IMG/VR virus record: IMGVR_UViG_3300042901_001417
Coordinates: 1 to 57,777 of that record
Source: a virus
Lineage: Duplodnaviria; Caudoviricetes
DNA length: 57,777 nt
Direction: 5' to 3' (one strand)
Shown: positions 3,001 to 16,021 of the stretch, piece after piece
Position numbering within the stretch: position 1 is the first letter of the stretch
Layout: each line of letters begins with the position of its first letter
The notes under the pieces: model-generated
What the model was told of the DNA's origin: nothing
Database searches by the model: none
What the model saw: the letters and a program-made list of their open reading frames with translations, nothing else
Made by a program: the position numbers and the translations under genes

Positions 3001-6000
3001 AAAGGCTGCAGAAGAAGGGTACGACAAGATTGCCCTCGTGCGCGGTGCGGATATTGCGAACGCTGTCGGCGGTCCACCGGATGCACTCGGCAAGTTCTAT
3101 GACGAGAAACTGACCAACACGCTGAAAAAGATGGTGGTGAAGCGTGGGGGGAAGGTGGATGATGTAATGCGCAATGAGCCATTACAGTGGATGCCCGCAT
3201 CAGGTGGCACGCCAAACAAATACTTGGCAGACCTGGCAGCAGGAGCGACCGTGGAAGCTATTGTGGAGGCAGATGGGGCAGTCTCTGCTACAGTGTATAA
3301 GGGAGGGAGGTATCATTCGCAGCACTATGCTGCCAGTCTCGCTGATCTCGACGATAAATTACTGGACGCGAACCGACTTACCACATTCGAAATACCACAG
3401 TCTCTCCGAGACGAAGTGCTGCAGAAAGGTCAGCCGCTCTACCAGCAGGGTGCCCGTGGTGCGGTGCAGTTTGCGGAGGACGGCAAGGTAGTCATTCACG
3501 CCTTCCAATCTGCTGACATGTCTACACTGGTGCATGAGGCTTCCCATGTTTTCCGAAAATCGCTCGAGGAACTGAACGGCGACCTGCTGAACCGGGCGGC
3601 GGAAGCCGTTGGTGTGCCCAAAGGGTCTAAATGGACACGTGAGCATGAGGAAGTGTTTGCCCGTGGGTTCGAGGACTACATGCGCACCGGCACTGCCCCC
3701 ACACGTGAACTCAGGTCTGTGTTCTACAAGTTCAAGCAGTGGCTGACGGACATCTACAAGTCATTGGTCGGCTCGGACCCGGGCAAGGTGTCGCCACAAT
3801 TGCGGTCAGTGTTTGATGAGATGCTGGGAAGCAAGATGGCTCCCGGACCATCAGTCACTGGCTCCCATAATATTGACAGCTTCGTGATGAACCTGATGGG
3901 GCTAAGTGACGTGGTTGGTAAGCAGGCACTGGACCTTGCAGACGCCACCCGTCGCACGTTCAAGCAGCAGATGACCCCGGGACCACGTGGCACACAGGGC
4001 GAGGTGATGCAGCGTGCGTCTGAGCTCCACACTCTGAAGGAGGAGGAGTTTGTCAAAGAGGCCAGTCAGTCTGTGTCTGCCGTCAGTAATGCCATCAACG
4101 AGATCGTGGGTTATCGCCCGGGATCTGTGGATGAAGCGGCTGAGGTGGCTCCGCATGCACTGCTGGCGGATGATGTGGTCACTGCTGCAGAGACAGGGGA
4201 TTATTCTGCCCTGCCGGAACAACTGATTGAGCCAGCCAAACAGATGGCGGCCACAGGCATGGCGAACCAGAGAAAGATTCAGGAAGCCGGGCACACTCGC
4301 CCGATGCTGAGCGATCAGTTTGTGGAGCACTTCCCGCACTCCCTGAATCCGACACTGCAGGCGTGGATGGACACTCAGGATTTCGGTGTGCATGGGATCG
4401 GTTCACCCAAGGCGGACGCTGCCAGCAATGCCCGTGCGAATCAGTCCGCGCGTGATGACCTGTTTAGAGATGCCGTTCAGGGTCGCAGAACGTGGAATGG
4501 TGTCACGTCTGACCCTGAGATCCTTGAAATGCTGAAGGATTACACGGTCGTGACAGATGCTGCCGCGAAACAGGGCATGATCGATGCAGCCACCGCAAAG
4601 ATTGCAGAGAAGTACGGTTCTGAGATCGATCCCCGCATGATTGTCCCAACAGAGGGGATGTACGCGGATAAGATCACCGTGCTGGATTCACTCAAAAATG
4701 AGATCGAATTGCCATGGGAAGTGTTTCAGAAGGAGTATGTCCGGGTAAATCCGGTAAATGACATGAGGACTGTGCAGGGTCGGCTGGCTGAGTTCCAGAG
4801 TCCACCGCTGTTCGTGAAAGCGGCGGACGCGCTGCTGAATGGTCCTTTAGCACAGCGATTCATGCCGTCCAGAAAGAATATGGAGAACCGGCACGCCGAG
4901 TTGGCGAAATGGATGTCCGACAAGTACCAGCCACTGCAGGGGAACAAAGGGATGTTCTCCTCGGAGCCTATCACGTCGTTTCAGGAGCGGATCTTCCGGG
5001 ATGGTCACACGTACGGCGCTCTGAAGGCAGTTCCTGAGATCCTGACAGGCGCTCTGAAAAGCCGGCTGATCCTGCCACCTGGTGGCAAGTTCGACAGCAC
5101 AGGGTACACGCTCGAGAGTATTCTGACATCCAGTCTGTACAGCCGGTCTAAGCGTGGCATGTGGTATGACCAGATGGCGGACACAATGCCCGACCTGAAG
5201 GCTGTCCGGGATTCATTCATGCAGAAAGAGAATCCGGATGGGTTCTATGCCTTCATGGACAATATGAGGATGGATCGCGATCTGGCACAGGAGATCCTGC
5301 AGACGGCGGACATGCTGCAGAAGGGCAGCCAGACGCTCGCCCCCATGTCCAAGGCATTCCGTGGGGCCACTGCGCTGTTCAAGTCCGGTGTTCTGACGCA
5401 CCCCGGTCGAATCATCCGGGACGTTGCCAGTGCTGTCGTGGCGCTCGGGTACAATAGCATGCTGAGCACCACCAGTCTGGAGCATGGGATCAAAGCCCTC
5501 ATGCACAACGGATCGGAAGCAGTGCAGCAGATCCCGGCAGTGAAGGCATGGATGTCCAAGTACGGCATTCCAGACACACCGGAAGGGGCTACGCGCGCAC
5601 TGCATGAGATATACGCCTCACTCAAGGGGCACGGTCAGTCGCTGTATCGCGATCCGAATCTGGACACGATGAGTCTGGCGGAACAGCTGAAGAGTGGCAT
5701 GGAGGGGATAGAGCAGGCTTTCCCCGGAACTGGCATAACCAGCTTCGGAAGTCCACTGCAGTCTACCAAACGGATCCTCTCGGCTGGCGGACCACAGCGC
5801 ATGTGGCGGCAGTTGAAGACGGAGCGTGAGGCGGGATTCTTCGGCGATGCTGGGGCGCAGTTGTCTCGCGCATGGCAGTCCGGCACATGGAACCCATTTG
5901 ACATCGCAGGGGTTCCCCATGTCGTCATGACCGACGCCAAGGTGAAGCAGGGCATCCGGCGTGGGGATGTGCGTGCCTCCAGCGAGTTCAAGCCGGCCAA

Positions 6001-7162
6001 AGTGTTCGACATCATCGGCAAGAATGCGGACGATGCCCCGCGCTTCGTGGGCCTGCTGGAAGGGTTGCTCCAAGGGAAATCCCCCGAAGAGGCATGGAAG
6101 GGCGTGAGTCGTGTTCTCCTCGACTATGACCCCAAGAAGTTCGGGCCGCTGGAAAACAAGGCACTGAAGAAAATCTTCCCCTTCTACTCGTTCCTGCGTC
6201 AGCAGTCGGTGTACCTCGGTTCGGAACTGATGACCAATCCGACCGGCAGGCTGGGGAAACTGATCCGGGTGGCTCGCCTGTCCCAACCAAACAATCAGTT
6301 TCTGCCTGAGCATGTGGCGGAATCACTGGCTATCCCTGTCGGTGGCGAGTCCGAGGATGGCACCCAGAACTACCTCACGGGTCTCGGGTTGATGTTCGAA
6401 GACCCACCGAAACTGCTCTCGGAGGGACCGTTCGAGTTCGCGCGTGCTGTACTGAGTCGAACGAACCCGTTGATTAAAGGCGTAGCAGAGGCGGGGCTGG
6501 GGCGCAGTGCATTCCAGGGCGGACCATTGGGCGCGCGGGATCTGGCGGATATGGACCCGGCACTCGGGCGAATCTTCACCAATCTGGGGCTGCAGGATGA
6601 GGCTCCGGGCGGGAATGCACGTCCGGCGTTCGGCTCTCGACCGCTGGAATTCTTCCTGTCGAATAGCCCAGTGTCGCGCATTCTCTCGACGGTCAAGACG
6701 ATCACGGAGGAAGGCGACCGGAAGAACCCGCTGGAGAAAGCCATGAACGTGCTCACAGGTCTGCGGATCACGTCGGTGTCCCCACAGGTCCGGCAGCGTG
6801 GGTTGCGCGAGTATGTGAATGCCCAGGCGAAAGAATTGGGGGCACGTCCGTTCTCGGACTTCACGATCTCAGATGCCCTGCTGGACGATGCCCGGGCACG
6901 GAGTGAGGAAGATTACCAGCGACTGATCGCGATTGACCAGCTGAAGGACACGTGGGACCAGAAGCGGAAGGGTGAGCAGAAGGCCAAACGTGAGGCGGAA
7001 GGGACCGTCGATAAGCGGACGGTGCGGGCGGAGCAGACAAGAATACTGCGGCGTACGGGACGCACAATGACCAAACAGGAGCGTGATGAGCGGGTCCGTG
7101 ATGCTATGCGCGCCCCGTACGGCAGTAGTTCGTATTACCAGATTCTGACTGGTATGGAGTGA
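2..7162 (+). CDS. Giant polyvalent / virion-ejected protein (ART-like, IQEIQSD domain, zincin metallopeptidase, LPD38-like C-terminus); 5'-truncated
   Basis: Frame is open from nt 2 (ORF track 62..7162, 2366 aa). Motifs: FKNWFGDW..VYHGT..HFTD..GYDG..YIVFDPTQIKS (ART-PolyVal-like); HVRMDD..IQEIQSDLHQ; STLVHEASH..EEVFARGFEDY (MPTase-like); FPFYSF near the C-terminus. Confidence 0.8.
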   Translation, partial: GYTTLSGLEKVGNLLDLPGSMVRDVLVWDNPFDQLLSPLSHSSTGKSASGRDVLSRNVLTSGLVSENKETGFVPFADPGEFLQDVAGFGVELATDPLAWLSGALSKAPAAAAKTVKAAGVVDDAADAGKALIPSVGDVQRFAGDPLKEAAGAAVDIPKKPGIWRSIGRGVEKVADFTDRYDPGFQLGKKGREVYDNSPELQSALGKVTPYLKELASSHLSEPMKKVAALRAMRDATGKMGANEARVSKMATDTFGPDADAVMTLMKSHANMWAEHTKQDADEWFARVQDIRKSDPAAVGADALMQSPETLRSPEFKNWFGDWEADPVNASKVVDHTGSPLRVYHGTGTPDLGVADAVKHNESLRKAAGEWDKYTAAEKEAGPLRKSAQQAADAVKSAFADAVGDVASKKQKHIPFDHKVYDFSSKEALAKSIYKEATYTEQEAMWTRGTFRELNGVVSTTIDDPTFARLAEAHRSWVNAEEATKSINPRPSSERPAQWMFRNESPAFNTRMYGANDPGYYAAGAHFTDNADEAGEYASHQMRGNPGVIPAYVNIRKPFVLGETVDAAAEQFITEAVDQHRQVAMRNSRGDLDALARAFATGRTEGLKRAGYDGMVVKTGKGTEYIVFDPTQIKSTMNRGTFDPNDPNILFQSAPYKAEPFYSKIMDAVDAGKIPNKVGRDQLMKTLVGYGVKQEELADMQRELDALFAAAPDGKVSKDDVFDLAADKAWNGVQVTELSDAKDREALSRVDNMRFTPPEGIPDSESYQALSRATERARVLDSLTPVRFRGYQVPGGVPDTYRELLIRHPSAKGFIEGNHFSGLADDVIAHVRMDDVNLPDGSKALRIQEIQSDLHQNARNLQQDTMSRDARIPRKLADGKTNPAFTQWVKNNEHRYPIESFYDGVNDWSPIPEFAQWDIDGTTKTVLTSPSTGLDIARRVVDGKEQYGLFDGAEIIDDAWYDSVSQAKHDAKFSAPSTQELPPYAAFKASWHELALKSVIRKAAEEGYDKIALVRGADIANAVGGPPDALGKFYDEKLTNTLKKMVVKRGGKVDDVMRNEPLQWMPASGGTPNKYLADLAAGATVEAIVEADGAVSATVYKGGRYHSQHYAASLADLDDKLLDANRLTTFEIPQSLRDEVLQKGQPLYQQGARGAVQFAEDGKVVIHAFQSADMSTLVHEASHVFRKSLEELNGDLLNRAAEAVGVPKGSKWTREHEEVFARGFEDYMRTGTAPTRELRSVFYKFKQWLTDIYKSLVGSDPGKVSPQLRSVFDEMLGSKMAPGPSVTGSHNIDSFVMNLMGLSDVVGKQALDLADATRRTFKQQMTPGPRGTQGEVMQRASELHTLKEEEFVKEASQSVSAVSNAINEIVGYRPGSVDEAAEVAPHALLADDVVTAAETGDYSALPEQLIEPAKQMAATGMANQRKIQEAGHTRPMLSDQFVEHFPHSLNPTLQAWMDTQDFGVHGIGSPKADAASNARANQSARDDLFRDAVQGRRTWNGVTSDPEILEMLKDYTVVTDAAAKQGMIDAATAKIAEKYGSEIDPRMIVPTEGMYADKITVLDSLKNEIELPWEVFQKEYVRVNPVNDMRTVQGRLAEFQSPPLFVKAADALLNGPLAQRFMPSRKNMENRHAELAKWMSDKYQPLQGNKGMFSSEPITSFQERIFRDGHTYGALKAVPEILTGALKSRLILPPGGKFDSTGYTLESILTSSLYSRSKRGMWYDQMADTMPDLKAVRDSFMQKENPDGFYAFMDNMRMDRDLAQEILQTADMLQKGSQTLAPMSKAFRGATALFKSGVLTHPGRIIRDVASAVVALGYNSMLSTTSLEHGIKALMHNGSEAVQQIPAVKAWMSKYGIPDTPEGATRALHEIYASLKGHGQSLYRDPNLDTMSLAEQLKSGMEGIEQAFPGTGITSFGSPLQSTKRILSAGGPQRMWRQLKTEREAGFFGDAGAQLSRAWQSGTWNPFDIAGVPHVVMTDAKVKQGIRRGDVRASSEFKPAKVFDIIGKNADDAPRFVGLLEGLLQGKSPEEAWKGVSRVLLDYDPKKFGPLENKALKKIFPFYSFLRQQSVYLGSELMTNPTGRLGKLIRVARLSQPNNQFLPEHVAESLAIPVGGESEDGTQNYLTGLGLMFEDPPKLLSEGPFEFARAVLSRTNPLIKGVAEAGLGRSAFQGGPLGARDLADMDPALGRIFTNLGLQDEAPGGNARPAFGSRPLEFFLSNSPVSRILSTVKTITEEGDRKNPLEKAMNVLTGLRITSVSPQVRQRGLREYVNAQAKELGARPFSDFTISDALLDDARARSEEDYQRLIAIDQLKDTWDQKRKGEQKAKREAEGTVDKRTVRAEQTRILRRTGRTMTKQERDERVRDAMRAPYGSSSYYQILTGME

Positions 7163-7169
7163 GGCAGGA

Positions 7170-7616
7170 TTACTTCCCCTGTCCTTGCTGAATGACCCTC
7201 ATGCGTGCCCAGATCAGCGACTGATCTACCGAGTTCGCATTCGTTGTTGCCAGTTGCTTCATGGCTTTGGCCCCATCATCGGGGTCACATGCCTTTGTTC
7301 GGCTGCACTCGTACGGTGCCACCGGATGGATCGTACACTTACCCTCGGATGACAGGAAAATACACTCGCCGTTCGGCTTACGCTTCGGACGGATGGCAGG
7401 CAACTGCAGGGACGTGTCCCCGTTGATGCTGGGACCGTCCAGTGTCGCCTCGAAATTGTTCTCGAAGAAATCCTCATTGGCCCACGGCAGGCCCAGATGC
7501 TCGGCGATCCGGTCCACATCGCTAGGGGCAACGCACCCCGGTCGTGTCCGGCAGAAGTCTTTGCACTTGTCGCACGCACAGACGCTGCGTTCGTGCTTTG
7601 CCAATACTCTCAGCAT
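7170..7616 (-). CDS. YkgJ-like cysteine-cluster (Zn/Fe-chelating) protein
   Basis: CxCxxCxxxC..CIFL..CTIHPVAPYEC pattern; start placed at ATG 7616 after GGAGG. Confidence 0.7.
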   Translation of the reverse strand: MLRVLAKHERSVCACDKCKDFCRTRPGCVAPSDVDRIAEHLGLPWANEDFFENNFEATLDGPSINGDTSLQLPAIRPKRKPNGECIFLSSEGKCTIHPVAPYECSRTKACDPDDGAKAMKQLATTNANSVDQSLIWARMRVIQQGQGK

Positions 7617-7647
7617 GGTTGCCCTCCAAAAAAATTGTGAACGGTGA

Positions 7648-7992
7648 TCAGATTTCAGCAGCAGAGATTCCAGCCTGAATCGATTCCCGGACAGAGGCAG
7701 GAAGTTTTTCGAACTGCTCGCCTTCGAAATGTTCATTCAGGATCAGCCACTGCACAGCTGCCGCTTCGTCGACCTGCACATACCCTTCCAGCGTGCCCTG
7801 GTAGTTTGAGAAGTCATTCAGCACCCACTTGCCGGACTTTGTGAAGTACAGCCACTCGTGATGCCACTGGCTCCCCGTGGGCACGCTGATCTGGTTGCGG
7901 CCATCCCAGCGGGTTCTTTCCTTGAACAACACGGCAGAGTCGGTGTGGAACCATGCACCAGAACCATCAGTCAGCGATACGCGATTTCCCAT
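7648..7992 (-). CDS. Hypothetical phage early protein
   Basis: ORF in the leftward operon; start MGNRV after AAAGG. Confidence 0.65.
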   Translation of the reverse strand: MGNRVSLTDGSGAWFHTDSAVLFKERTRWDGRNQISVPTGSQWHHEWLYFTKSGKWVLNDFSNYQGTLEGYVQVDEAAAVQWLILNEHFEGEQFEKLPASVRESIQAGISAAEI

Positions 7993-8014
7993 TGCCACAA
8001 CCTTTCGAAAAGGG

Positions 8015-8087
8015 CATCTCACTGTTTGCCGGTTGACCGTCAACCGTTACCACCGCTCGCCACGAGGAGGCCAGAGACATGAGCGGC
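8015..8087 (-). ncRNA. HDV-like self-cleaving ribozyme
   Basis: Minus strand: P1 GCCGCTC/GAGCGGT (G-U first pair), P3 GCC/GGC, L3 TCCTCGT, P1.1 CC/GG, P4 CGGTTGAC/GTCAACCG, J4/2 GCAAA, bulged P2 TGTCTCTG/CAGTGAGATG. Confidence 0.85.
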
Positions 8088-8129
8088 AACCCGGACTGTG
8101 CCGGGCATAAATGTGAACCATTCTACCCA

Positions 8130-8456
8130 CTATTCCCCCACGGGGAAACTGAATCCTGCCTCAATGGCTGAACAGCGAATCTGATGCACTCGCTGTCGAG
8201 ACAGGCGAAACCGTGTGGCCACGTCCGTCTGTTTTTCCCCATCCAGCAGTGCTTTCAGGATCTGCATGGTAGACGGGGCAGTGTAATCCCGGGCAGCACG
8301 TGCCGGTTTCACGCTGAACTCTTTGCACGCAGACCAAACTGTAGACAGGCTGACCTTGTGTGCCTGGCTGGCGGCTGCAGCACCATGCTCTGCGGCATAC
8401 TTCGCAATGTTCTTCCGCCGTTCAGAGCGGTCATCGTGTGACAGGTAAGAAGCCAT
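8130..8456 (-). CDS. Helix-turn-helix DNA-binding protein
   Basis: Two HTH-like segments (AASQAHKVSLSTVWSAC; QTDVATRFRLSRQRVHQI). Confidence 0.65.
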   Translation of the reverse strand: MASYLSHDDRSERRKNIAKYAAEHGAAAASQAHKVSLSTVWSACKEFSVKPARAARDYTAPSTMQILKALLDGEKQTDVATRFRLSRQRVHQIRCSAIEAGFSFPVGE

Positions 8457-8475
8457 AACTCAATCGTACTCCCTT

Positions 8476-9135
8476 CTATGCCACCACGCAGTCACGAATC
8501 ATTTCGCCTGCCTCAATGGCTGACAGCATTCCACGGAAATTGCACTGACAACGCTTCGCCAGTGCCACGTATTCGCCCAGCAGAGCGCCGCCCAGACCCT
8601 CTGCCTCTGCAATCTCCATTGCACGCTTTGCGAAAGCGTCCAGATACCGCACATGATCCAGCCGGAACTCAATGCACCGGCTCAACAGTGGATGTGCGTC
8701 GATACCATCGAACAGGGACTGCTGCCCTGCACTGGTCGTGGTGAAACACCATGTAACATGGTTCGGGATACGCTCCAGAACCACCAGCAGTTTGCGGATC
8801 GTGTCTTTACGAAGGCCGTGCGATTCATTCAAAAGCACTGCACGCCCAGGCTTGTCACCGATTGCCCTGAATCGCAGGTTGCGTTCGATGTCATCCAGTT
8901 TCGCGGGTGTGATGTCCCCAGCGTCCAGTTCGATAAAGTTTTCGGGATCTGAAACTTCGGCTGCGACGAGGTACGCAATCGTGGTTTTCCCAGTGCCCGA
9001 CAGTCCAGACAGCCAGAACGCACGCCCACCGAGTGACCCACGTTCCTTCATGCGGGCAATGGACACTTTGACCGCCTTGTGGCCGATCACTTCGTCCCAT
9101 GAACGCGGACGAACCTTTTCAAACAGCATCTGCAT
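8476..9135 (-). CDS. Clamp-loader (DnaX/RFC)-like AAA+ ATPase, short form
   Basis: LFEKVRPRSWDEVIGH, Walker A GLSGTGKTT, Walker B LLNESH, SRC motif; start at ATG 9135 after AAGGAG. Confidence 0.8.
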   Translation of the reverse strand: MQMLFEKVRPRSWDEVIGHKAVKVSIARMKERGSLGGRAFWLSGLSGTGKTTIAYLVAAEVSDPENFIELDAGDITPAKLDDIERNLRFRAIGDKPGRAVLLNESHGLRKDTIRKLLVVLERIPNHVTWCFTTTSAGQQSLFDGIDAHPLLSRCIEFRLDHVRYLDAFAKRAMEIAEAEGLGGALLGEYVALAKRCQCNFRGMLSAIEAGEMIRDCVVA

Positions 9136-9613
9136 TGTCAGTCTCCTTGGGGATAACACGAAACGATGGAAGGAACGGTGGCAGTTGGTCAGTCACCCAC
9201 TTCGTGATGTCTGCTCTCGGTGTGTACGGGTCTTGCAGCATTTCAAGCACTCGCAGCCCATTGATCAGTGGGCGGTGATCAGTGTCGGCGTAGCAATCGC
9301 CCATGATGTCATCATCGCGGTCATACAGTGGCCACAGAATGATTGTGTCGAATCCGCTCTTACCATCCACAATCTTGTGGTAAGGCAGCCGGTGCTCCTT
9401 CAGGAATACCTCCAGTGCCCCGAGGTCTGCGTAGTTGCACTCAGGGAACTGCACGCTGATCACGCCATCGGTGTCCGGTCCAGTCAGGTCTTCCTCGTCA
9501 GGATCGAACCCATCCTCTGGACCTTGCTCCTCGATCAGCCGTGCCAGTTCATCACGCACTTCCGGTGTGCAGTCGCCACCGATGCTCAGCGTGACCCAGA
9601 ATCGCTCACCCAT
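9119..9613 (-). CDS. Acidic hypothetical protein
   Basis: 164-aa ORF overlapping both neighbours in the operon. Confidence 0.65.
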   Translation of the reverse strand: MGERFWVTLSIGGDCTPEVRDELARLIEEQGPEDGFDPDEEDLTGPDTDGVISVQFPECNYADLGALEVFLKEHRLPYHKIVDGKSGFDTIILWPLYDRDDDIMGDCYADTDHRPLINGLRVLEMLQDPYTPRADITKWVTDQLPPFLPSFRVIPKETDNADAV

Positions 9614-9947
9614 TGGTTTCCCCCTTTGCTTTCTGAATCATCTGGACAGCCACGTTATTCAGTTCAGCCATTCGCACCCACACGCTTTGAGGAACCTTCA
9701 GTTGTGCCTGAGTCAAGCACAGCGCCTCGCCACACGATTCGGACAGATCCTGAAGGATGGACAGCAGATCCGGCGCTGCTGCGATCAGGTGTGCGTTGGC
9801 CACCAGTGTGTCCTCGTCCTGTTCACAGCGACCTTCCTCATCAGAGTCTGCAATCGTGGCGATGTAAATGTCGTTGAATGTGCCCGATGGATCAGGAGCC
9901 ACAATGAACGGCATGTCACTCGACCACGGACCCGGTGTATGTTTCAC
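9606..9947 (-). CDS. Conserved phage protein (HTPGPW...ANAxLIAAAPDLL family)
   Basis: KHTPGPW and ANAHLIAAAPDLL motifs; GTG start at 9947. Confidence 0.75.
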   Translation of the reverse strand: MKHTPGPWSSDMPFIVAPDPSGTFNDIYIATIADSDEEGRCEQDEDTLVANAHLIAAAPDLLSILQDLSESCGEALCLTQAQLKVPQSVWVRMAELNNVAVQMIQKAKGETNG

Positions 9948-9980
9948 ACTGCACCTGCCTTTCAAGAGAGATCGAAATTA

Positions 9981-10034
9981 AACCCAGACCCCGCAACGCA
10001 CGGGGTTTCGTCCTTCCGGACTCGTCAGTGGGTT
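9981..10034 (-). ncRNA. Hammerhead ribozyme, type I
   Basis: Minus strand: AACCCA-CTGACGA-GTCC(GGAA)GGAC-GAAA-CCCCG(TGCGTTG)CGGGG-TC-TGGGTT. Complete core and three stems. Confidence 0.93.
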
Positions 10035-11013
10035 AAGCAATACCAGACATCTGCAGAGCAGTCGTGAGTGCCTTCTGTGACATCTCACGTCCACTGCCCC
10101 ACCATGATTCACTCAGCCGGCGATCAGCAGAACGTCCTGCCTGCCAGCAGACATACTCGGTGACACCGTTGTAAGCGTGCCACCAGTTGCTGCCACGATT
10201 GCCCTTGCCATGTGTGGCGTTCTCGGTGATCGCAGCAACCTTGGACTTCTCAGCATTCGTCCACTTGTGGAACTCAGCAGGAGCATCCACAACGATCCGA
10301 GCAAACTCCCGCAGGTCAACCCGGCTGACCCCACGCTGTGCCAGCTGCCGGAACTGATCAGCCGTGAGATTGAACACCTCCTCGCCCTGCTGCATGGCTG
10401 ACCGCAGCGTCTCCAGATTCTTCTGCAGGCCACTGGTGTGCAGGCAGCGAATCAGTTTCGACTCACCACCATGAGCAGCAGCAGACAGCGTGTTGTGACA
10501 GACCACACGGATCGGAGTGAACCCGAACCGCACAGCGAAACTGCCATCGTGACCGTGGGCCAAGAGCATGTATTTGGCAACCGTGTCGTTCGTGTCGATC
10601 ACGGTGTCCTTTCCAAATTTCCCCAGCATCCAGACGCGGCGACCGTTGAACAAACTGCCGCAGGTCTCGATCTGCAGCGTCTTGTCACGCACCAGCGGTT
10701 CGAACAGGTCGCTCATCTGGGTGTTCTGGAACGGCGTGTAGTCCGGTCCCACGACACCCAGAACGTCACCAGTGTCATCCCGGACAATCGCACCGTGATT
10801 GCCGTTCTTGACACGGGTAGCCTCGTCCGTCTGCTTCACCAGTCTGCCATCAGCCAGGAACATCGGCTGCTTTGTCACGGACCAGTTCAGCCCGGACAAC
10901 TGTAGTGCCTCACGTGCCGAGGCAGGCGGTTCTGACAGTGTCGTGCCCAGACCGTGCCACGGCGTCTGACCCACTGCGATCATGTTGTCTTTGGAAAACA
11001 AATTGTGTGCCAT
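10033..11013 (-). CDS. DUF932 / TIGR03299-type phage/plasmid protein
   Basis: MAHN..PWHGLG..LNWSV..GSLFNGRRVW..HDGS..TPIRVVCHNTL. Confidence 0.88.
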   Translation of the reverse strand: MAHNLFSKDNMIAVGQTPWHGLGTTLSEPPASAREALQLSGLNWSVTKQPMFLADGRLVKQTDEATRVKNGNHGAIVRDDTGDVLGVVGPDYTPFQNTQMSDLFEPLVRDKTLQIETCGSLFNGRRVWMLGKFGKDTVIDTNDTVAKYMLLAHGHDGSFAVRFGFTPIRVVCHNTLSAAAHGGESKLIRCLHTSGLQKNLETLRSAMQQGEEVFNLTADQFRQLAQRGVSRVDLREFARIVVDAPAEFHKWTNAEKSKVAAITENATHGKGNRGSNWWHAYNGVTEYVCWQAGRSADRRLSESWWGSGREMSQKALTTALQMSGIA

Positions 11014-11040
11014 CGTGCAAACCCCTCACATGAAACAGGA

Positions 11041-11110
11041 ACAGGCTCATCAGTGCAGGCACAGTACCTGCATACACTCCGGGTTCCCAATCCGAAGTGT
11101 TTCGCCTTGT
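11041..11110 (-). ncRNA. Hammerhead ribozyme, type II
   Basis: Minus strand: ACAAGGC-GAAA-CACTTCGG(loop)CCGGAGTG-TA-TGCAGGTA(CTG)TGCCTGCA-CTGATGA-GCCTGT. Confidence 0.92.
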
Positions 11111-11127
11111 TGTGTGGACGCTACACG

Positions 11128-11712
11128 TTATTGGTTATCGAACACGTGCAGACCATGATCACCCCAACTCGACCAAACGTCCCCGCTCGACTGCAGGTCG
11201 TTTGCCATTCGCTCCCAGTCCACGTAATTGATCGGTGACCACCAGTTCTTGTCGTCACGCTGATACTCGCCGCACTCCTCCCAGTAATTCTCCACGTAAT
11301 CGGCAAGCGTGTCCCAACAGCCACGATACTGCTCACGGAACTTGTCGGTCGCGTCGTCCCAGTCAATGTCATCGCTGTTCTGATTGGCAACCCACCGCTC
11401 GAATGCCTCGGTCTCAGACTCGCTCAGATCAGCAATCGCGTCGGTGTACGCTGCCAGTGCGTCGATATCTTCGTGCTCACTGGGTCGCCACTGGCCAAAG
11501 CCCTCGAAATCATGGATCGCCCATTCTTCGGCTGAGGGAACCATCTCGCCAGTATCCGGATCTTCCACTTCCACGTTCGGGTACATCGACTTACGCAGCA
11601 TTGCCGCGATGTCGCTACGAATTGCATCTGCGTCCTGCTCGCAGTCGATCCACTCACCATGCAGGACACCAGAGTTGTACGAGGCCAAGCAGGCCACATA
11701 AATACGAGGCAT
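11128..11712 (-). CDS. ardA: Antirestriction protein ArdA (DNA mimic)
   Basis: PRIYVACLASYNSGVLHGEWID..EEWAIHDFEGF..YVDWERMANDL; very acidic; start at ATG 11712. Confidence 0.92.
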   Translation of the reverse strand: MPRIYVACLASYNSGVLHGEWIDCEQDADAIRSDIAAMLRKSMYPNVEVEDPDTGEMVPSAEEWAIHDFEGFGQWRPSEHEDIDALAAYTDAIADLSESETEAFERWVANQNSDDIDWDDATDKFREQYRGCWDTLADYVENYWEECGEYQRDDKNWWSPINYVDWERMANDLQSSGDVWSSWGDHGLHVFDNQ

Positions 11713-11757
11713 GAGTAAACCTTTCTGAGAGTTTTGAAAAACCGGACTGAACACTCC

Positions 11758-11787
11758 ACTATAAAGGAATCACCCGATCGCAGGATT
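11758..11787 (-). promoter_or_regulatory. Repeated early promoter-like element, copy 1
   Basis: Minus AATCCTGCGATCGGGTGATTCC-nn-TATAGT; 21/22 identical to the copy at 14573..14594. Confidence 0.6.
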
Positions 11788-11802
11788 ACGCAGGTGTGAA
11801 GT

Positions 11803-11876
11803 GCATTCCGACTTGGGACGGATGGCCCACATTGAGCCAGTGCATTACAGCCCGAAGGCTGCCCTCTGCATTACGC
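11803..11876 (-). ncRNA. Twister ribozyme, P5-type permutation
   Basis: Minus strand: GCA-GAGGG-CAGCC(TTCG)GGCTG-TAA-TGC-AC-TGGCTC(AATGT)GGGCCA-TCCG-TCCC-AA-GT-CGGA. P1-P4 present, pseudoknots CCC/GGG and AC/GT, P5 GCGT/ATGC. Confidence 0.88.
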
Positions 11877-12662
11877 TGTCTGAAGTTCCTGTGTGCGTTC
11901 ATGCTGCCGTCGCTGCTCCTGAGCATTGTGCCGTGCCCTTCGCATCGTATGCACCGCCTGCTTAAAGTCAGTGATACGGTCGTAGTGGTCCAGAAAGCAG
12001 CAGATTTCGTAGCGGGTCAGTCCCTTAAAGCAATCGCATGCCTGTAGAAACTTAGCAGCGTCAGACCGTGCCATGTCAGGATCGTCCACACGGGCAATGG
12101 CCTGAACAGTCGCCACCCACTGGATCACCCCGAATGGCTTGTGATGGTCACCCATGTGAAGGAATCGCAACACACGGTCGACTGCGGAATCCTTGTCGTC
12201 GCTGTATGGACGCTCAATCTTGTGCCATCGCTTGTCGTGTCGCTTTGATTCACTGTGCGATTTCTTGCCACCGTCCTCGAATGTGAAGTATGTGTCTTTG
12301 TTGTCCACGTACTTCAGGGTCAGCAGGAAGGCGATCAGCTTATCGCTCGCCTCCGAATGTGCTCGCCAGAACCAGCGAATAGGCTCTGTGCCAGACTCCT
12401 CACCGTCAACCGACACAGGAACGCGATCCAGAGACGCTGCCAAACTGGCCACAACATCCACCAGATCCTCAGCCTGCACGAGACAGTCCGGAGAATGCTG
12501 CACTTCACCATCACCCATCGTGTCATACTGGCTCAGATGACTGCTGATACACCCGGTCATCCGTCGCCAATCGTAGGCAGGGTTGTCGCCATCACTTTCG
12601 TACAGGCGATACCTCCACGATGGACGTGCCAGGGACGGGAATACGAATGTCGACTTGCTCAT
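11871..12662 (-). CDS. Hypothetical early protein
   Basis: Long ORF; start MSKSTF after AAAGGA. Confidence 0.65.
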   Translation of the reverse strand: MSKSTFVFPSLARPSWRYRLYESDGDNPAYDWRRMTGCISSHLSQYDTMGDGEVQHSPDCLVQAEDLVDVVASLAASLDRVPVSVDGEESGTEPIRWFWRAHSEASDKLIAFLLTLKYVDNKDTYFTFEDGGKKSHSESKRHDKRWHKIERPYSDDKDSAVDRVLRFLHMGDHHKPFGVIQWVATVQAIARVDDPDMARSDAAKFLQACDCFKGLTRYEICCFLDHYDRITDFKQAVHTMRRARHNAQEQRRQHERTQELQTA

Positions 12663-12757
12663 AGCAACGATCCTTTTGAACGGGTAACACAAGATCCCAC
12701 CCGCAACCACTGCAGGTGAGCACGAACAGAACAGCGATCCTTCGCATGGGGAAATCC

Positions 12758-13117
12758 TCAGTCGATGTTGTGCTGAGACAGCGCTAATTCGATGTTGCGG
12801 ACAGCAACTTCTATGTGTCCGAATGTATTCAACTGGCTTTCGGTGTTCAGGAGTGCTTTCAACACCAGTCGCACAGCGTGCAACTCAGCAAGATCACCAT
12901 CCAGATGGTCCCACTTCATGCGGTCAATCATCATGTGACGTTCCGCTGTGCAGTCGGACGAACACTGGTATTCATGCAGTGCGTCCATGATCAGCTGCCG
13001 GTAGTCCAGATATCGCTCAGAGCACAGATCCTCACGCACCAGCCATGTCAGCGTCAGTTCGCGTCGATCAGGCTCAGGAGCCAGCCCCTTGCCCAGCGAC
13101 TTTTGTTTCAGGCTCAT
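12758..13117 (-). CDS. Hypothetical early protein
   Basis: Start MSLKQK after GGAGG. Confidence 0.6.
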   Translation of the reverse strand: MSLKQKSLGKGLAPEPDRRELTLTWLVREDLCSERYLDYRQLIMDALHEYQCSSDCTAERHMMIDRMKWDHLDGDLAELHAVRLVLKALLNTESQLNTFGHIEVAVRNIELALSQHNID

Positions 13118-13130
13118 TTGGTAACCTCCA

Positions 13131-13174
13131 CAGGCGGAATTGCCTGAATGAACCTCAGCCGGTCTCTGAGGCTC
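13131..13174 (-). ncRNA. Two-hairpin motif (AGAYCGG / AATTYC loops), copy A
   Basis: GAGCCTCAG(AGACCGG)CTGAGGTTC-ATT-CAGGC(AATTCC)GCCTG. Confidence 0.6.
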
Positions 13175-13205
13175 GATTCGGACCATTCACGTGCAGGTGT
13201 AATGT

Positions 13206-13583
13206 TTAGGCTGGGGCCACTTCCGTGACATGATCACGAAGGAAGTGGTTGGTGCGACAATGCTTCAGCACCCGTGCCCATTTGCCTTCGCTGGTGTAAT
13301 CACGCTGTTCCCATGACAGGAATGCTTTGGCCGCCTGAATGGCGAGTGGCACTTTATGTGCCGGAAATGCGTCAGGAAACGCGATTACCACAGCACAGGC
13401 ATCGCAGTCTTCCTCGTACCAGCGACCACCAGCGAACGTGTGGAAGCGGAATTTAGACTGAAGTGCGGCATGTCGCTCAGGTGACAGTTCAATGCCACCA
13501 TGACTGGCTGTGTGATGGCTGAGAATGCCATCTGCGATCTCATACGTGCTGTCTGCAATACCCCAAGGTGTCTGGTGTTTCAT
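13206..13583 (-). CDS. DUF7007-like protein
   Basis: TPWG..IADGI..TASHGG..LS..R..WYEEDC motif set. Confidence 0.7.
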   Translation of the reverse strand: MKHQTPWGIADSTYEIADGILSHHTASHGGIELSPERHAALQSKFRFHTFAGGRWYEEDCDACAVVIAFPDAFPAHKVPLAIQAAKAFLSWEQRDYTSEGKWARVLKHCRTNHFLRDHVTEVAPA

Positions 13584-13596
13584 ACAATGCACTCCC

Positions 13597-13639
13597 CGAG
13601 CGAAATTGCTCGTATGACCCCCTGCCGATCTCAGGGAGT
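13597..13639 (-). ncRNA. Two-hairpin motif, copy B
   Basis: GACTCCCTG(AGATCGG)CAGGGGTC-ATA-CGAGC(AATTTC)GCTCG. Confidence 0.6.
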
Positions 13640-13671
13640 CTAACCAGCAATTGCAGCACCCCCGCTACACG

Positions 13672-13929
13672 TCAGAAGTCAGTTTCGCCTTCCAGTGCGT
13701 CTTCATCCCACTCCAGCAGGTCCAGCTCGTCATCGTCGTCAATGAACAGCGGTTCGGACCAATCAAGCGAGCAATCGTCTGCCATGCTGTCGTCAGCCAG
13801 CCACGGAAACAGTGCGTCTTCCTGCTGGCGCTGCTCGTCATCGAACACATCGTGTGCAAGCTCTTTCGCTCCCATGTCGAAATCCTCATCGTACAGGTAA
13901 GGGTGTTGGTCGAAATGACTCCCGGACAT
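13672..13929 (-). CDS. Extremely acidic small protein (candidate DNA mimic)
   Basis: 31 D/E against 2 K/R in 85 aa; GGAG upstream. Confidence 0.65.
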   Translation of the reverse strand: MSGSHFDQHPYLYDEDFDMGAKELAHDVFDDEQRQQEDALFPWLADDSMADDCSLDWSEPLFIDDDDELDLLEWDEDALEGETDF

Positions 13930-13946
13930 GTTGCTCAGTCTCCATT

Positions 13947-14147
13947 TCAGGCGTTGTACCCAGCGTGTTTTGTGGCCGGAACAGCCGGACCCAGAATACG
14001 CCAGTGTGAAGGGTCGTGATCCATACCAGATGCCTGCAGGACACGAAGGCGAGCAGCCTCAGCATCCGCACAGGTCTTGTGACAACTGTAAATGTGCCAG
14101 TTCCATGACGCGGAAGGCGTCGGTGACCATTCAAGTGACCAGTCCAT
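13947..14147 (-). CDS. Small hypothetical protein (frame uncertain)
   Basis: Fills the gap in the operon; an alternative frame is 13886..14134. Confidence 0.35.
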   Translation of the reverse strand: MDWSLEWSPTPSASWNWHIYSCHKTCADAEAARLRVLQASGMDHDPSHWRILGPAVPATKHAGYNA

Positions 14148-14511
14148 GCTGCATGACCCCCAGAATGCCCATCAGGACGCTCGCATCCGTCAGGTAGTGA
14201 ATTGTTGCCCCCAGACCACGATAGTGATCCACGTACTCGTCAATCGAGTAGTAATCGTACGGCTTGTCATGCGGGCCAAGAATGCTCGTGTCCCGGCAGT
14301 ATCGCGGCGGGAATCGGTACGTCTCAGCCGTTCGCATGTCAATCACAGGAATGCCTGACCCCACGTACTGTTCGAGCAGAGCACCGATGTCGTACCCCGT
14401 GTGCGATCCAGACGATGAACCACCATTGCCCGTGTCGTGAACCCGAAATGTCACTGTCGCCTGACCCCCGAGTATGGGAATCGTGGCGTATGCAGGAATC
14501 AGTTTTCGCAT
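14131..14511 (-). CDS. Hypothetical early protein
   Basis: 126-aa ORF after GAGGGAG and the repeated promoter. Confidence 0.6.
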   Translation of the reverse strand: MRKLIPAYATIPILGGQATVTFRVHDTGNGGSSSGSHTGYDIGALLEQYVGSGIPVIDMRTAETYRFPPRYCRDTSILGPHDKPYDYYSIDEYVDHYRGLGATIHYLTDASVLMGILGVMQHGLVT

Positions 14512-14564
14512 GATTGTTGCTCCCTCAGAAAAAACTCGGTGAAAAACTCAAAACTGTCTGCCCC

Positions 14565-14594
14565 AATATATTGGAATCGCCCGATCGCAGGATT
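14565..14594 (-). promoter_or_regulatory. Repeated early promoter-like element, copy 2
   Basis: Minus AATCCTGCGATCGGGCGATTCC-nn-TATATT. Confidence 0.6.
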
Positions 14595-14595
14595 G

Positions 14596-14826
14596 TCAGC
14601 TGTTCAGATCGTGCACGATGCCCAGCCACATCCCAATGGACCGCACCATCACGCAGAATGAGGTTCTCCCCACTTCCACACCCGATGGCAGGAAGCCGCC
14701 GTGCTGCACCCATGACGTGATTGAATCCACCAATTCCTGCGCCCGCTCCACGTCCGAAACAGGCATCAGCCCCTCATCACCCGAAATCAGGTACATGAGT
14801 TCCTTCCAAGCCGCATTAACGTCCAC
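14596..14826 (-). CDS. Small conserved phage protein (MDxNA...W..GGFLP)
   Basis: GAGGAG RBS, GTG start, WVQHGGFLP motif. Confidence 0.65.
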   Translation of the reverse strand: MDVNAAWKELMYLISGDEGLMPVSDVERAQELVDSITSWVQHGGFLPSGVEVGRTSFCVMVRSIGMWLGIVHDLNS

Positions 14827-15304
14827 GGTGTATGCTCCTCAATCATGTGTGAAGTGACCAGAACCACTATCGCATCGTGTGATCGCACAGGATGCCCTCA
14901 GAATCGATTGCGTGCGTTTGGATGACAAATCCATCGCACAGGATGTTCAGGCCGTCAAATCGCCTGTAATGCGTTCGCTACATGTTCGCGCCTTCTTTAC
15001 TGAGCATTAAAGCCCAGCCCCTCGCAAACGCGAGCGGTGCCCGGAGTCTGCCGAGCCCCGCCCGTGATTGTGCTCCGGACTGCATGGACTGCAGCGCGGC
15101 GCATATATGGTGCCGACACGCTGCAGATCAGTCTGAGACCGGAAAACACTGAGATTCCGTCGACTATGCTGGAAACGCGGGATCGTGGGAATGAGGACCG
15201 GGCCAATGGCGAGCACTGCCCGGATTATGGGGACTTACCCGCACTACGGCAGATTCCTGGCAAATAGTCGCGGGTCGATCCGAAGAAAATAACGTATACA
15301 GTGG

Positions 15305-15331
15305 TTGACAGTGTAGTGATGGTGCTACACT
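15305..15331 (+). promoter_or_regulatory. Sigma70-like promoter overlapped by a TGTAG-N8-CTACA operator
   Basis: TTGACA plus extended -10 TGcTACACT (15-nt spacer); inverted repeat AGTGTAG-N8-CTACACT. Confidence 0.6.
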
Positions 15332-15370
15332 TCAGAAGGTCACTAAAAATCCTCATTCAAGGTTAAGACA

Positions 15371-15934
15371 ATGAACGAAGTAGACTGGCTGAAAATCAGA
15401 GCGACGATCCGGAGACACTGCAGAGCGGCAGCAGGACACGAGGTCAAAGGATTGCGGCGGATCACTGCGGCGCGAATCGAGGAAAACGATATCGACGATG
15501 TCTGCCAGGAATGCTGCGGCCTGGCATGGTTGAAAATCGAAAACGGAATGGCGGTCCCGCTCGCGATATGGGTGGCGGTTCGGTCCATTGGACGTATCAA
15601 TCGAGAACTGGCAGAAGGCGCACAGTGTGAATCGTTTCGCTGGGAGGAACCGGACATGCGGTCTTCTCAATGGTATATCGAACAGCGCGGCCGGTTCGAT
15701 ATCCAAGACGCCAACGGCGAAACGCAGTACACCCCGGAACATCCACGACCGGACCACATCCGCGCTGCTGTCGGCCTGGCAATTGTCGACGGCAGACCGA
15801 TGGCAGTAACTGCAGAACGGATCGTGAACGGTGAACGTGAAATTGAGGAGCGGCGCACCTTTGAGTGCTTCACGGCAGCGCAGCGCGTCAAGCGCAGTAT
15901 GCTCGACCGCTCGCGACCTGTGGTTTTCTGCTGA
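15371..15934 (+). CDS. Hypothetical protein
   Basis: 187-aa ORF downstream of the promoter. Confidence 0.55.
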   Translation: MNEVDWLKIRATIRRHCRAAAGHEVKGLRRITAARIEENDIDDVCQECCGLAWLKIENGMAVPLAIWVAVRSIGRINRELAEGAQCESFRWEEPDMRSSQWYIEQRGRFDIQDANGETQYTPEHPRPDHIRAAVGLAIVDGRPMAVTAERIVNGEREIEERRTFECFTAAQRVKRSMLDRSRPVVFC

Positions 15935-15946
15935 GATTCCGAGACA

Positions 15947-15991
15947 CTGCATATTCAGACCGGGGATATGCAGACTCCCGCAATTTCGCGG
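15947..15991 (+). ncRNA. Two-hairpin motif, copy C
   Basis: CTGCATATTC(AGACCGG)GGATATGCAG-ACTC-CCGC(AATTTC)GCGG. Confidence 0.6.
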
Positions 15992-16021
15992 TAATTATCA
16001 CTCTGAGAAAGGTTAAGAACA

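What the first reader, a model, noticed from the sequence alone, without database searches (positions are those of the whole stretch)
8015..11876. Early anti-defence operon punctuated by four self-cleaving ribozymes of three classes
Seen: an HDV-like ribozyme (8015..8087), a type I hammerhead (9981..10034), a type II hammerhead (11041..11110) and a P5 twister (11803..11876). All are on the coding strand, lie in intergenic gaps and have intact cores. Three of them sit in consecutive gaps flanking ardA and DUF932. Established: these classes cleave in cis, leaving 5'-OH and 2',3'-cyclic phosphate ends, and single examples near phage genes are known. Inference: the phage cuts its earliest polycistron into per-gene mRNAs without host RNases, analogous to T7 RNase III sites. 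This could tune stability and dose of anti-restriction proteins. Using different folds would avoid repeats that recombine.
Basis: partly seen in the sequence, partly recalled or inferred. Interest (0 to 1): 0.9.

Follow-up and report, generated by a model that had tools for sequence, protein, structure and literature searches.

The report
Four self-cleaving ribozymes around phage ardA
A lake-water phage carries four small self-cutting RNA motifs of three different classes in the gaps around its anti-restriction gene, a real but already described kind of arrangement whose purpose is still unproven.

Summary
All four motifs lie on the minus (coding) strand at the stated coordinates, in intergenic gaps. 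Twister-P5 passes Rfam's cut-off (41.6 vs 37.6 bits). The HDV-like motif (40.0 vs 44), hammerhead I (27.6 vs 34) and hammerhead II (22.8 vs 37) fall below it. All class-defining helices and core nucleotides are nonetheless present. A strict hammerhead descriptor finds exactly these two sites in the window and none in 100 simulated windows.

The type I hammerhead recurs right after DUF932 in a 53%-identical relative, with five compensatory pair changes.

Perreault 2011 described three hammerheads flanking ardA and a neighbouring gene in an Agrobacterium prophage, shown to cleave in vitro and in E. coli, and proposed single-gene mRNA processing. Twister and hammerhead clustering near shared gene classes is also known.

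"Earliest operon", dose tuning and "different folds avoid recombination" are unsupported. One relative uses three type II hammerheads. Verdict: a new member of a known kind, with moderate-to-low interest.

The parts
11871..12710 (-). 279-aa gene of unknown function. Its stop codon abuts the twister.
   Evidence: ORF list. No Pfam or PHROG family. No relative in IMG/VR.
11803..11876 (-). Type P5 twister ribozyme. Predicted cut between U11847 and A11846.
   Evidence: Rfam RF02684, 41.6 bits, above the cut-off of 37.6. P5, P2, P1 (UUCG loop), P3 and P4 written out. The MFE fold gives the same hairpins, z -2.31.
11128..11712 (-). ardA anti-restriction gene. Likely ATG at 11712; the listed ORF starts at GTG 11754.
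   Evidence: PF07275, E 1.7e-35. phrog_2059, anti-restriction protein. A GAAAGG sequence lies before the ATG.
11039..11107 (-). Type II hammerhead ribozyme. Predicted cut between A11073 and U11072.
   Evidence: Rfam RF02276, 22.8 bits, below the cut-off of 37. My descriptor hits this site and 0 of 100 simulated windows. Stem II is 4 bp, stem III 9 bp and stem I 6 bp or more, with a CUGAUGA/GAA/A17 core. Fold z -3.49.
10033..11013 (-). DUF932 gene
   Evidence: PF06067, E 1.2e-40. phrog_1221.
9981..10034 (-). Type I hammerhead ribozyme overlapping the DUF932 stop codon. Predicted cut between C9987 and U9986.
   Evidence: Rfam RF00163, 27.6 bits, below the cut-off of 34, E 0.0015. Descriptor hit. 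Helices written out. The same element sits at the same place in L003/L004, with different stem II and III sequences.
8130..9965 (-). Four-gene block between hammerhead I and the HDV-like motif: 119 aa (phrog_1273), 164 aa, a 227-aa AAA/clamp-loader-like protein and a 108-aa HTH_23 protein.
8089..8106 (-). 6-bp hairpin ending one base before the HDV-like cut. It would be the 3' end of the upstream product.
   Evidence: Fold of 8135..8088. The function is inferred.
8015..8087 (-). HDV-like ribozyme. Predicted cut between U8088 and G8087.
   Evidence: Rfam RF02682, 40.0 bits, below the cut-off of 44, E 7e-5 in 7 kb and 5.7e-4 in the whole window. P1 with a G-U wobble, P1.1, P2, P3, P4 and C8028 in J4/2 are all present. 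A second copy, about 85% alike and bounded at 8008 and 8088, lies in another contig of run X13.
7170..7992 (-). Last two genes of the array: 114 aa (ATG 7992) and a 188-aa CxxCxxCC-domain protein.

Best explanation
The window is a tailed-phage contig from lake water. Its minus-strand gene array, about 16 kb down to 7.2 kb, is read as a long transcript. Four cis-acting self-cleaving ribozymes in the gaps cut it while it is being made: twister-P5, hammerhead II, hammerhead I and an HDV-like motif.

Each cut leaves a 2',3'-cyclic phosphate upstream and a 5'-OH downstream. This is established chemistry for these classes.

The predicted products are:
- an upstream piece ending at U11847;
- an ardA-only RNA of 774 nt;
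- a DUF932-only RNA of 1086 nt;
- a four-gene RNA of 1899 nt;
- a 3' RNA that begins with the folded HDV-like domain.

Each product keeps ribozyme helices at its ends. I infer that these structured ends, which lack a 5'-phosphate, uncouple the decay and translation of neighbouring genes. Expression of ardA and DUF932 could then be set independently of the rest.

Shown here: the motifs, their integrity, their placement and conservation of one of them. Inferred: co-transcription, actual cleavage and any effect on dose.
For: - Motifs and scores.
- Complete cores and helices.
- Hammerhead descriptor: 2 hits in the window against 0 of 100 simulated windows.
- Folds reproduce the class structures.
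- All four are on the gene strand and inside gaps, which make up about 9% of 7170..12710 by my count.
- Conservation: hammerhead I follows DUF932 in L003/L004, whose protein is 53% identical. The core is identical and there are 5 double compensatory changes, 2 in stem II and 3 in stem III.
- Same architecture elsewhere: L008 has three type II hammerheads above the Rfam cut-off (49.9, 43.2 and 41.6 bits) in consecutive gaps around ardA.
- Polycistron: no sigma-70-like promoter in 6800..17500 (0 against 4.6 expected). None of the listed terminator-like sites lies in a ribozyme gap on the gene strand.
- Phage identity: a terminase-like protein at 26769..28532, a RecE/YqaJ-like exonuclease and a replication initiator. 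IMG/VR holds it as a virus record, 84% complete.
- Literature: three hammerheads flanking ardA cleave in vitro and in E. coli (PMC3088659, passages). Three type II hammerheads near phage-like genes cleave in vivo in Desulfovibrio vulgaris (PMC8782182, passages).
Against: - Three of the four motifs score below Rfam's curated cut-offs.
- The HDV-like motif's nested fold is no more stable than shuffles (z -0.11).
- Hammerhead I has a short open stem I, and I saw no loop-loop tertiary contact. It could be slow at cellular Mg2+.
- No expression or RNA-end data exist for this phage.
- Ribozymes are dispensable at these places:
  - 4 of 4 closer DUF932 relatives (63-66% identity) have none at E<=1 and carry a terminator-like hairpin in the same gap.
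  - 12 of 13 IMG/VR ArdA loci have none.
  - 0 of 8 sampled GenBank phage DUF932 loci has a hammerhead by my descriptor.
- The promoter scan covers only sigma-70-type sites, and the host is unknown.
Confidence: 0.7

Rival explanations
1. Portable punctuation. Each ribozyme belongs to a gene cassette rather than to the operon. It moves with ardA or DUF932 between phages. It acts as a self-contained insulator that lets the cassette work wherever it lands, in place of its own terminator and promoter. This overlaps with the best explanation on mechanism and differs on why the motifs are there.
For: tblastn of 13 proteins of the array against the 21 related loci held then (L003-L023) finds only the query genes, ardA or DUF932. 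The neighbours are unrelated. Yet hammerhead I sits at the DUF932 stop codon in both the window and L003/L004. Relatives without a ribozyme have a terminator-like hairpin in that gap, and in L019 a promoter-like site after it. The second HDV-like copy in run X13 is bounded exactly by the ribozyme, with unlike DNA on both sides.
Against: There is only one independent case of gene and ribozyme travelling together; L003 and L004 are alike there. The closer DUF932 relatives lack the hammerhead, so linkage is not tight. No repeats or recombination scars were looked for or seen at cassette borders.
Confidence: 0.2
2. One or more of the sub-threshold motifs is inactive, very slow or conditionally active. 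On this reading only some gaps are cut, and cutting may depend on conditions. The likeliest candidates are hammerhead I and the HDV-like motif.
For: Scores lie below Rfam cut-offs. No obvious tertiary contact for hammerhead I (my reading). The twister loop L4 differs from the Rfam consensus by one base (alignment). Perreault 2011 reports slow phage variants and raises regulated cleavage (passages). The 2021 cyPhyRNA-seq paper notes that many predicted candidates did not cleave (passage).
Against: No core position deviates from the class consensus. Hammerhead I shows compensatory changes in a relative. A high-throughput study reports that natural twisters tolerate imperfections (PMC11662667, abstract only, from the listing).
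Confidence: 0.15
3. Paired cuts followed by ligation give circular or spliced RNAs, for example an ardA or DUF932 circle, rather than linear mRNAs.
For: Cyclic-phosphate and 5'-OH ends are substrates for RtcB-type ligases (established knowledge, recalled). Perreault 2011 raised this possibility.
Against: Perreault 2011 states that neither type of product was detected. Nothing in the sequence brings the ends of one segment together.
Confidence: 0.03
4. The matches are chance resemblances.
For: Three of the four are below Rfam cut-offs. Hammerhead II has E 0.4 even in a 7-kb search.
Against: Whole-window E-values are 2.7e-5, 5.7e-4 and 0.012. The descriptor gave 0 hits in 100 simulated windows. 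All four are on the gene strand and in gaps. One is conserved with covariation.
Confidence: 0.01

Closest known systems
Triple hammerhead arrangement flanking ardA in an Agrobacterium tumefaciens prophage (Perreault et al. 2011, PMC3088659)
   Same: Self-cleaving ribozymes sit in consecutive gaps on the coding strand. They bracket ardA and one neighbouring gene of unknown function in a phage-derived gene array. The authors proposed processing of long phage transcripts into single-gene or operon-length mRNAs, and showed cleavage in vitro and in E. coli (passages).
   Different: There all three are hammerheads. Here the three gaps hold a twister, a type II hammerhead and a type I hammerhead, with an HDV-like motif 1.9 kb further on. 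I could not see their supplementary figures, so I cannot say whether their second gene is a DUF932.
Clustering of twister, hammerhead and other self-cleaving ribozymes near shared gene classes in bacteria and phages (Roth 2014 and Weinberg 2015, as summarised in PMC6765202 and PMC5737381)
   Same: Structurally unrelated classes occupy equivalent places near the same kinds of genes, often close to each other and within 6 kb of certain gene classes. [quoted passage not shown]
   Different: [quoted passage not shown] The two primary papers are not held, so whether HDV-like members were included is unknown to me.
IMG/VR contig behind locus L008
   Same: Three ribozymes lie in consecutive gaps around an ArdA homologue (37% identical) and its small neighbours.
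   Different: All three are type II hammerheads and all pass the Rfam cut-off. No other gene is shared with the window.
Bacterial and phage HDV-like ribozymes: Faecalibacterium prausnitzii (Rfam RF02682), theta ribozymes of gut phages (PMC10879173), an Ackermannviridae ribozyme (PMC13635239)
   Same: Nested double-pseudoknot layout, a cut at the 5' edge of P1, and a catalytic C in J4/2. Occurrence in phage DNA is documented.
   Different: Theta ribozymes are a minimal subfamily found adjacent to viral tRNAs (abstract in the listing). This one has a full P4 and sits between protein genes; the window holds no tRNA gene. The F. prausnitzii example lies upstream of glmM.
RNase III processing of the phage T7 early polycistronic transcript (recalled, not looked up)
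   Same: A phage polycistron is cut in the gaps between genes into stable, separately translated mRNAs with hairpins at their ends. It works like that.
   Different: T7 uses a host protein enzyme, which leaves 5'-phosphate and 3'-OH ends. Here the RNA would cut itself and leave 5'-OH and cyclic phosphate. This is an analogy only, not shared ancestry.

Membership tests
Hammerhead ribozyme (type I at 9981..10034, type II at 11039..11107) | Conserved core: C3 U4 G5 A6 N7 G8 A9, G12 A13 A14, the A15.1-U16.1 pair, and H17 (not G) before the cut. | tested here: met
   Type I: CUGACGA, GAA, A10006-U9988, C9987. Type II: CUGAUGA, GAA, A11100-U11074, A11073. The core list matches the one in the methods passage of PMC3088659.
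Hammerhead ribozyme | Three helices around the core with intact pairs next to it. The open helix defines the type. | tested here: met
   Type I: stem I 6 bp (open), stem II 4 bp, stem III 7 bp. Type II: stem II 4 bp (open), stem III 9 bp, stem I 6 bp or more. The MFE folds give the same junctions.
Hammerhead ribozyme | Score at or above Rfam's gathering cut-off. | tested here: not met
   27.6 against 34 (RF00163) and 22.8 against 37 (RF02276). This is a curation threshold, not a structural requirement. My descriptor control gave 0 hits in 100 simulated windows.
Hammerhead ribozyme | Tertiary contact between stems I and II, by loop-loop interaction or pseudoknot, for fast cleavage. | tested here: inconclusive
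   By eye, a 4-nt complement to loop I lies just 5' of the type II motif, and a 5-nt complement to loop III lies just 3' of it. I saw none for type I. No test against chance was made.
Twister ribozyme, type P5 | Rfam covariance model score at or above the cut-off. | tested here: met
   41.6 bits against 37.6, full-length match to model positions 1-58.
Twister ribozyme, type P5 | P1, P2 and P4 helices, conserved internal loops with the U-A cleavage step, and ends in P5. | tested here: met
   P2 4 bp, P1 5 bp with a UUCG loop, P3 6 bp, P4 4 bp, P5 4 bp; loops GAGGG and UAA; L4 UCCCAAGU.
Twister ribozyme, type P5 | Two pseudoknots (T1, T2) between L4 and the internal loops. | tested here: inconclusive
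   GGG 11864..11862 can pair with CCC 11817..11815. I did not map T1 and T2 rigorously. L4 differs from the Rfam consensus at one base (alignment).
HDV-like ribozyme | Nested double pseudoknot: P1, P1.1, P2, P3 and P4 in the canonical order, with the cut at the 5' edge of P1. | tested here: met
   P1 7 bp, P3 3 bp with L3 UCCUCGU, P1.1 C8067-G8050 and C8066-G8051, P4 7 bp, P2 4+2 bp.
HDV-like ribozyme | G-U wobble closing P1 at the cleavage site, and a catalytic cytosine in J4/2. | tested here: met
   G8087-U8052. C8028 aligns with the C of the GGC in both Rfam HDV models.
Rfam family HDV-F-prausnitzii (RF02682) | Score at or above the gathering cut-off. | tested here: not met
   40.0 against 44. 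I therefore call it HDV-like, meaning the class, and not a member of this Rfam family.
All four ribozymes | Site-specific self-cleavage. | not testable with these tools
   This needs transcription and cleavage assays or RNA end mapping.
ArdA anti-restriction protein | Pfam PF07275 domain above the cut-off. | tested here: met
   123.4 bits against 27, E 1.7e-35. Anti-restriction activity itself was not tested.
DUF932 | Pfam PF06067 domain above the cut-off. | tested here: met
   140.2 bits against 23, E 1.2e-40.

The most novel reading that the evidence does not exclude
Self-cleaving ribozymes of any class act as interchangeable, portable gene punctuation. On this reading they travel with single counter-defence cassettes (ardA, DUF932) between unrelated phages. 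They replace a terminator-promoter pair, so a newly acquired cassette is expressed and insulated at once inside a foreign operon. The window would then be an operon assembled from such ribozyme-bounded cassettes, with an HDV-like member added to the known set of classes used this way.
Probability: 0.2. Interest if true: 0.55.

Novelty: new member of a known kind. Interest (0 to 1): 0.3.

Why it matters
The biological role of ribozyme clusters in bacteria and phages is still described as largely elusive (2019 review). This 3.9-kb stretch is a compact natural case. It holds three catalytic folds doing what looks like the same job in one transcript, next to a gene with a measurable phenotype (anti-restriction).

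That makes it a convenient construct for asking whether self-cleavage changes mRNA half-life or protein dose, and whether the class of ribozyme matters. It does not reveal a new principle. The arrangement around ardA and the processing hypothesis were published in 2011.

Tried and rejected
- Expression data. The look-up of sequencing runs listed 24 holders, and no RNA holder was listed. Read laying on X11-X14 used DNA contigs only, so it says nothing on RNA ends.
- Close relatives of the phage, wanted to test conservation at all four gaps:
  - the AAA protein, the 279-aa protein and the 114-aa protein each found no relative in IMG/VR;
  - DUF932 found 2 loci in IMG/VR, 4 in metagenomes, 0 in GTDB genomes as a single protein and 2 as an alignment;
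  - none of these shares any other gene of the array.
  So only hammerhead I could be compared.
- More copies of the HDV-like motif. A pattern search in IMG/VR found 0. The X13 contig that holds a second copy cannot be read out. Only 6 of its 12 differences are listed: three in the P1 3' strand, one in J1/4 and two in the P4 5' strand. I could not check whether the partner bases covary.
- Further ribozymes upstream. An Rfam scan of 12650..16600 at E<=5 gave 2 weak hits to unrelated families and no ribozyme.
- Host. Whole-genome scans of the two MAGs behind L022 and L023 for type II hammerheads gave 0 matches at E<=0.1 and no taxonomy. The descriptor-only hit in L023 was not seen by Rfam at E<=1, so I give it little weight.
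- Nearest phages in GenBank by DNA. Only a 70-nt ardA stretch matched, in 8 mycobacteriophage records.
- Structural genes. 0 families for 9 of 10 large ORFs in PHROGs, and for 6 of 8 in Pfam. The terminase was seen only through the Atlas.
- Literature:
  - Searches turned up no report of an HDV-like, a twister and hammerheads in one phage operon.
  - This is weak evidence of absence. Roth 2014 and Weinberg 2015 are not held, and supplementary files, including Perreault's Figures S2 and S3 and his dataset, are closed.
  - The search on DUF932 with ArdA listed 12 of the 157 papers holding two of its three terms, and none of the 12 holds the word DUF932.
- Rejected: chance matches (see rivals), and "different folds avoid recombination" (see L008).

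Full report
**What the window is.**
- The window is a complete IMG/VR virus record of 57,777 bases, estimated 84% complete. Near-identical DNA occurs in lake-water metagenome runs.
- Markers of a tailed phage are present:
  - a terminase-large-subunit-like protein at 26769..28532 (Atlas feature score 0.99; structure TM 0.60-0.85 to Terminase_6N clusters);
  - a RecE/YqaJ-like exonuclease;
  - a replication-initiator/DnaD-like protein;
  - a serine recombinase.
- Most large plus-strand ORFs have no Pfam or PHROG family.
- GenBank phages share only a 70-nt ardA stretch with the region.

**The observation.**
- All four motifs lie on the minus strand, the strand of the genes from about 16 kb down to 7.2 kb.
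- Rfam at gathering threshold over the whole window returns one match: Twister-P5 at 11870..11807, 41.6 bits against a cut-off of 37.6.
- A permissive scan of 7000..14000 returns 11 matches:
  - the twister, E 3.3e-6;
  - HDV-F-prausnitzii at 8087..8015, 40.0 bits against 44, E 7e-5;
  - Hammerhead_1 at 10034..9988, 27.6 bits against 34, E 0.0015;
  - Hammerhead_II at 11107..11039, 22.8 bits against 37, E 0.4;
  - two lower-scoring models on the same places;
  - five weak hits to unrelated families.
- Over the whole window at E<=1, three matches remain: 2.7e-5, 5.7e-4 and 0.012. The type II hammerhead drops out.
- So only one motif passes curated thresholds, and the rest need other support.

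**Other support.**
- I wrote a strict hammerhead descriptor requiring a full core and three uninterrupted stems. It finds exactly two sites in the window on both strands, the two reported ones. It finds none in 100 simulated windows of the same first-order composition.
- Written out base by base, every class-defining element is present.
  - Type I hammerhead: CUGACGA, GAA, A15.1-U16.1, C17; stems of 6, 4 and 7 bp.
  - Type II hammerhead: CUGAUGA, GAA, A17; stems of 4, 9 and at least 6 bp.
  - Twister: P5, P2, P1 (UUCG loop), P3, P4; internal loops GAGGG and UAA; loop UCCCAAGU.
  - HDV-like motif: a 7-bp P1 closed by the G8087-U8052 wobble; P3 with loop UCCUCGU; a two-pair P1.1; a 7-bp P4; P2; and C8028 at the catalytic position.
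- Thermodynamic folds reproduce these structures. Against shuffles they score z -3.49 (type II), -2.31 (twister) and -2.08 (type I). The HDV-like motif scores -0.11, but its pseudoknots cannot be scored by this method.

**Placement.**
- ArdA (PF07275, E 1.7e-35) and DUF932 (PF06067, E 1.2e-40) are confirmed.
- The twister starts at the stop codon of the upstream 279-aa gene.
- The type II hammerhead lies 21 nt after the ardA stop and 26 nt before the DUF932 start.
- The type I hammerhead overlaps the DUF932 stop codon.
- The HDV-like motif lies between the HTH gene and a 114-aa gene whose likely start is ATG 7992.
- A 6-bp hairpin ends one base before the HDV-like cut.
- Predicted products are 774 nt (ardA), 1086 nt (DUF932) and 1899 nt (four genes), plus a 3' piece with two genes. 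"Per-gene mRNAs" is therefore true for two genes only.
- No sigma-70-like promoter is found in 6800..17500 (0 against 4.6 expected), and terminator-like sites are not enriched (11 against 7.7±2.8). This fits one long transcript, but the scan covers one promoter type and the host is unknown.
- No further Rfam ribozyme lies upstream in 12650..16600.

**Relatives.**
- DUF932 relatives:
  - Two IMG/VR loci (53% identity, alike to each other) carry a type I hammerhead at the same place, overlapping the stop codon. Its core is identical, and 2 pairs in stem II and 3 in stem III are changed on both sides.
  - Four metagenome loci with closer proteins (63-66%) show no ribozyme at E<=1. They carry a terminator-like hairpin in that gap.
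  - One MAG locus (52%) shows none.
  - A Planctomycetota MAG locus (30%) has a type II hammerhead 1.4 kb upstream by my descriptor only.
  - 415 GenBank phage records hold a DUF932 relative. I sampled 8, and 0 of the 8 has a hammerhead within 2.5 kb by the descriptor.
- ArdA relatives: of 13 IMG/VR loci, 1 (L008) has ribozymes. These are three type II hammerheads above cut-off, in consecutive gaps around ardA and small neighbours. The other 12 have none.
- None of the 13 array proteins other than the query gene is shared with any of the 21 loci held at that point, L003-L023. ardA and DUF932 are therefore mosaic cassettes, and the ribozymes are sporadic.
- A 232-nt contig in run X13 matches the window only over 8008..8088, the span of the HDV-like motif. 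It has 12 differences and unlike DNA on both sides. This points to a second, diverged copy elsewhere in the same habitat.

**What is known.**
- Perreault et al. 2011 (PMC3088659; passages read) report the following:
  - Multiple hammerheads often flank single genes or short blocks in prophages.
  - A triple arrangement in Agrobacterium tumefaciens flanks ardA and a gene of unknown function, and cleaves in vitro and in E. coli.
  - ardA follows a hammerhead in three Legionella strains.
- The 2019 review (PMC6765202; passages and section 5) reports the following:
  - Twister and hammerhead ribozymes share gene neighbourhoods.
  - This suggests the exact motif is unimportant.
  - The property was used to find twister-sister, pistol and hatchet.
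  - The role in bacteria remains largely elusive.
- PMC5737381 adds that such ribozymes are often within 6 kb of certain gene classes.
- HDV-like ribozymes in phages are documented: theta ribozymes next to viral tRNAs (abstracts in the listing; passages) and an Ackermannviridae example.
- In-vivo cleavage of three type II hammerheads near phage-like genes was shown in Desulfovibrio vulgaris.
- I could not read Roth 2014, Weinberg 2015 or any supplement.

**Verdict.**
- The motifs are real, and very probably active ribozymes that segment a polycistronic phage RNA.
- The arrangement and the hypothesis are already in print.
- What is particular here is the mix of three classes, including an HDV-like member, within 3.9 kb. 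I found no report of that mix, but I could not check the key primary papers.
- The claims of "earliest" transcription, dose tuning and recombination avoidance are not supported by anything I could test. The last one is contradicted by L008 and by the published triple hammerheads.
- I rate it a new member of a known kind, interest 0.3.
- The boldest reading still open is that ribozymes are portable punctuation inherited with individual counter-defence cassettes (probability about 0.2).

Noticed in passing
window 62..7162 (+): A 2366-aa ORF with an ART-PolyVal domain (ADP-ribosyltransferase of polyvalent proteins; PF18760, E 1.8e-19). It converges on the ribozyme-bearing array, and the rest of the protein has no Pfam family.
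   Followed up: no
window 13593..13664 (-): A 72-nt intergenic gap folds into one long imperfect hairpin (-31.3 kcal/mol, z -3.70, 0 of 200 shuffles as stable). It has no Rfam match. It could be a processing or regulatory site.
   Followed up: partly
window 8089..8106 (-): A 6-bp hairpin ends one base before the HDV-like cleavage site. It would form the 3' end of the upstream product.
   Followed up: partly
run X13, contig record 18, laid on window 8008..8088: A 232-nt contig matches only the HDV-like motif span, with 12 differences and unlike flanks on both sides. This is a second copy of the motif in another context in the same habitat. The contig could not be read out to count covariation.
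   Followed up: partly
L018 4740..6100; L019 and L020 around DUF932: Closer DUF932 relatives have terminator-like hairpins after the gene. They also carry short palindromic motifs (about 15 nt, resembling operator sites) both upstream and downstream of it. A conserved region of about 90 nt with a hairpin lies upstream in L018-L020.
   Followed up: partly
L005 5776..5888: The contig with the closest ArdA relative (54%) ends in a tmRNA-like 3' part (Rfam tmRNA, 30 bits, E 2.8e-8, below cut-off). This could be an attachment site in ssrA.
   Followed up: no
window 26769..28532 (+): A terminase-large-subunit-like protein that neither Pfam nor PHROGs detects. It is recognised only by Atlas features and structure. 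Nearly the whole structural module is similarly unrecognised.
   Followed up: partly
window 20399..22069 (+): A 556-aa protein with two Resolvase-domain stretches (PF00239, E 2.9e-52). It could be a tandem or fused serine recombinase.
   Followed up: no
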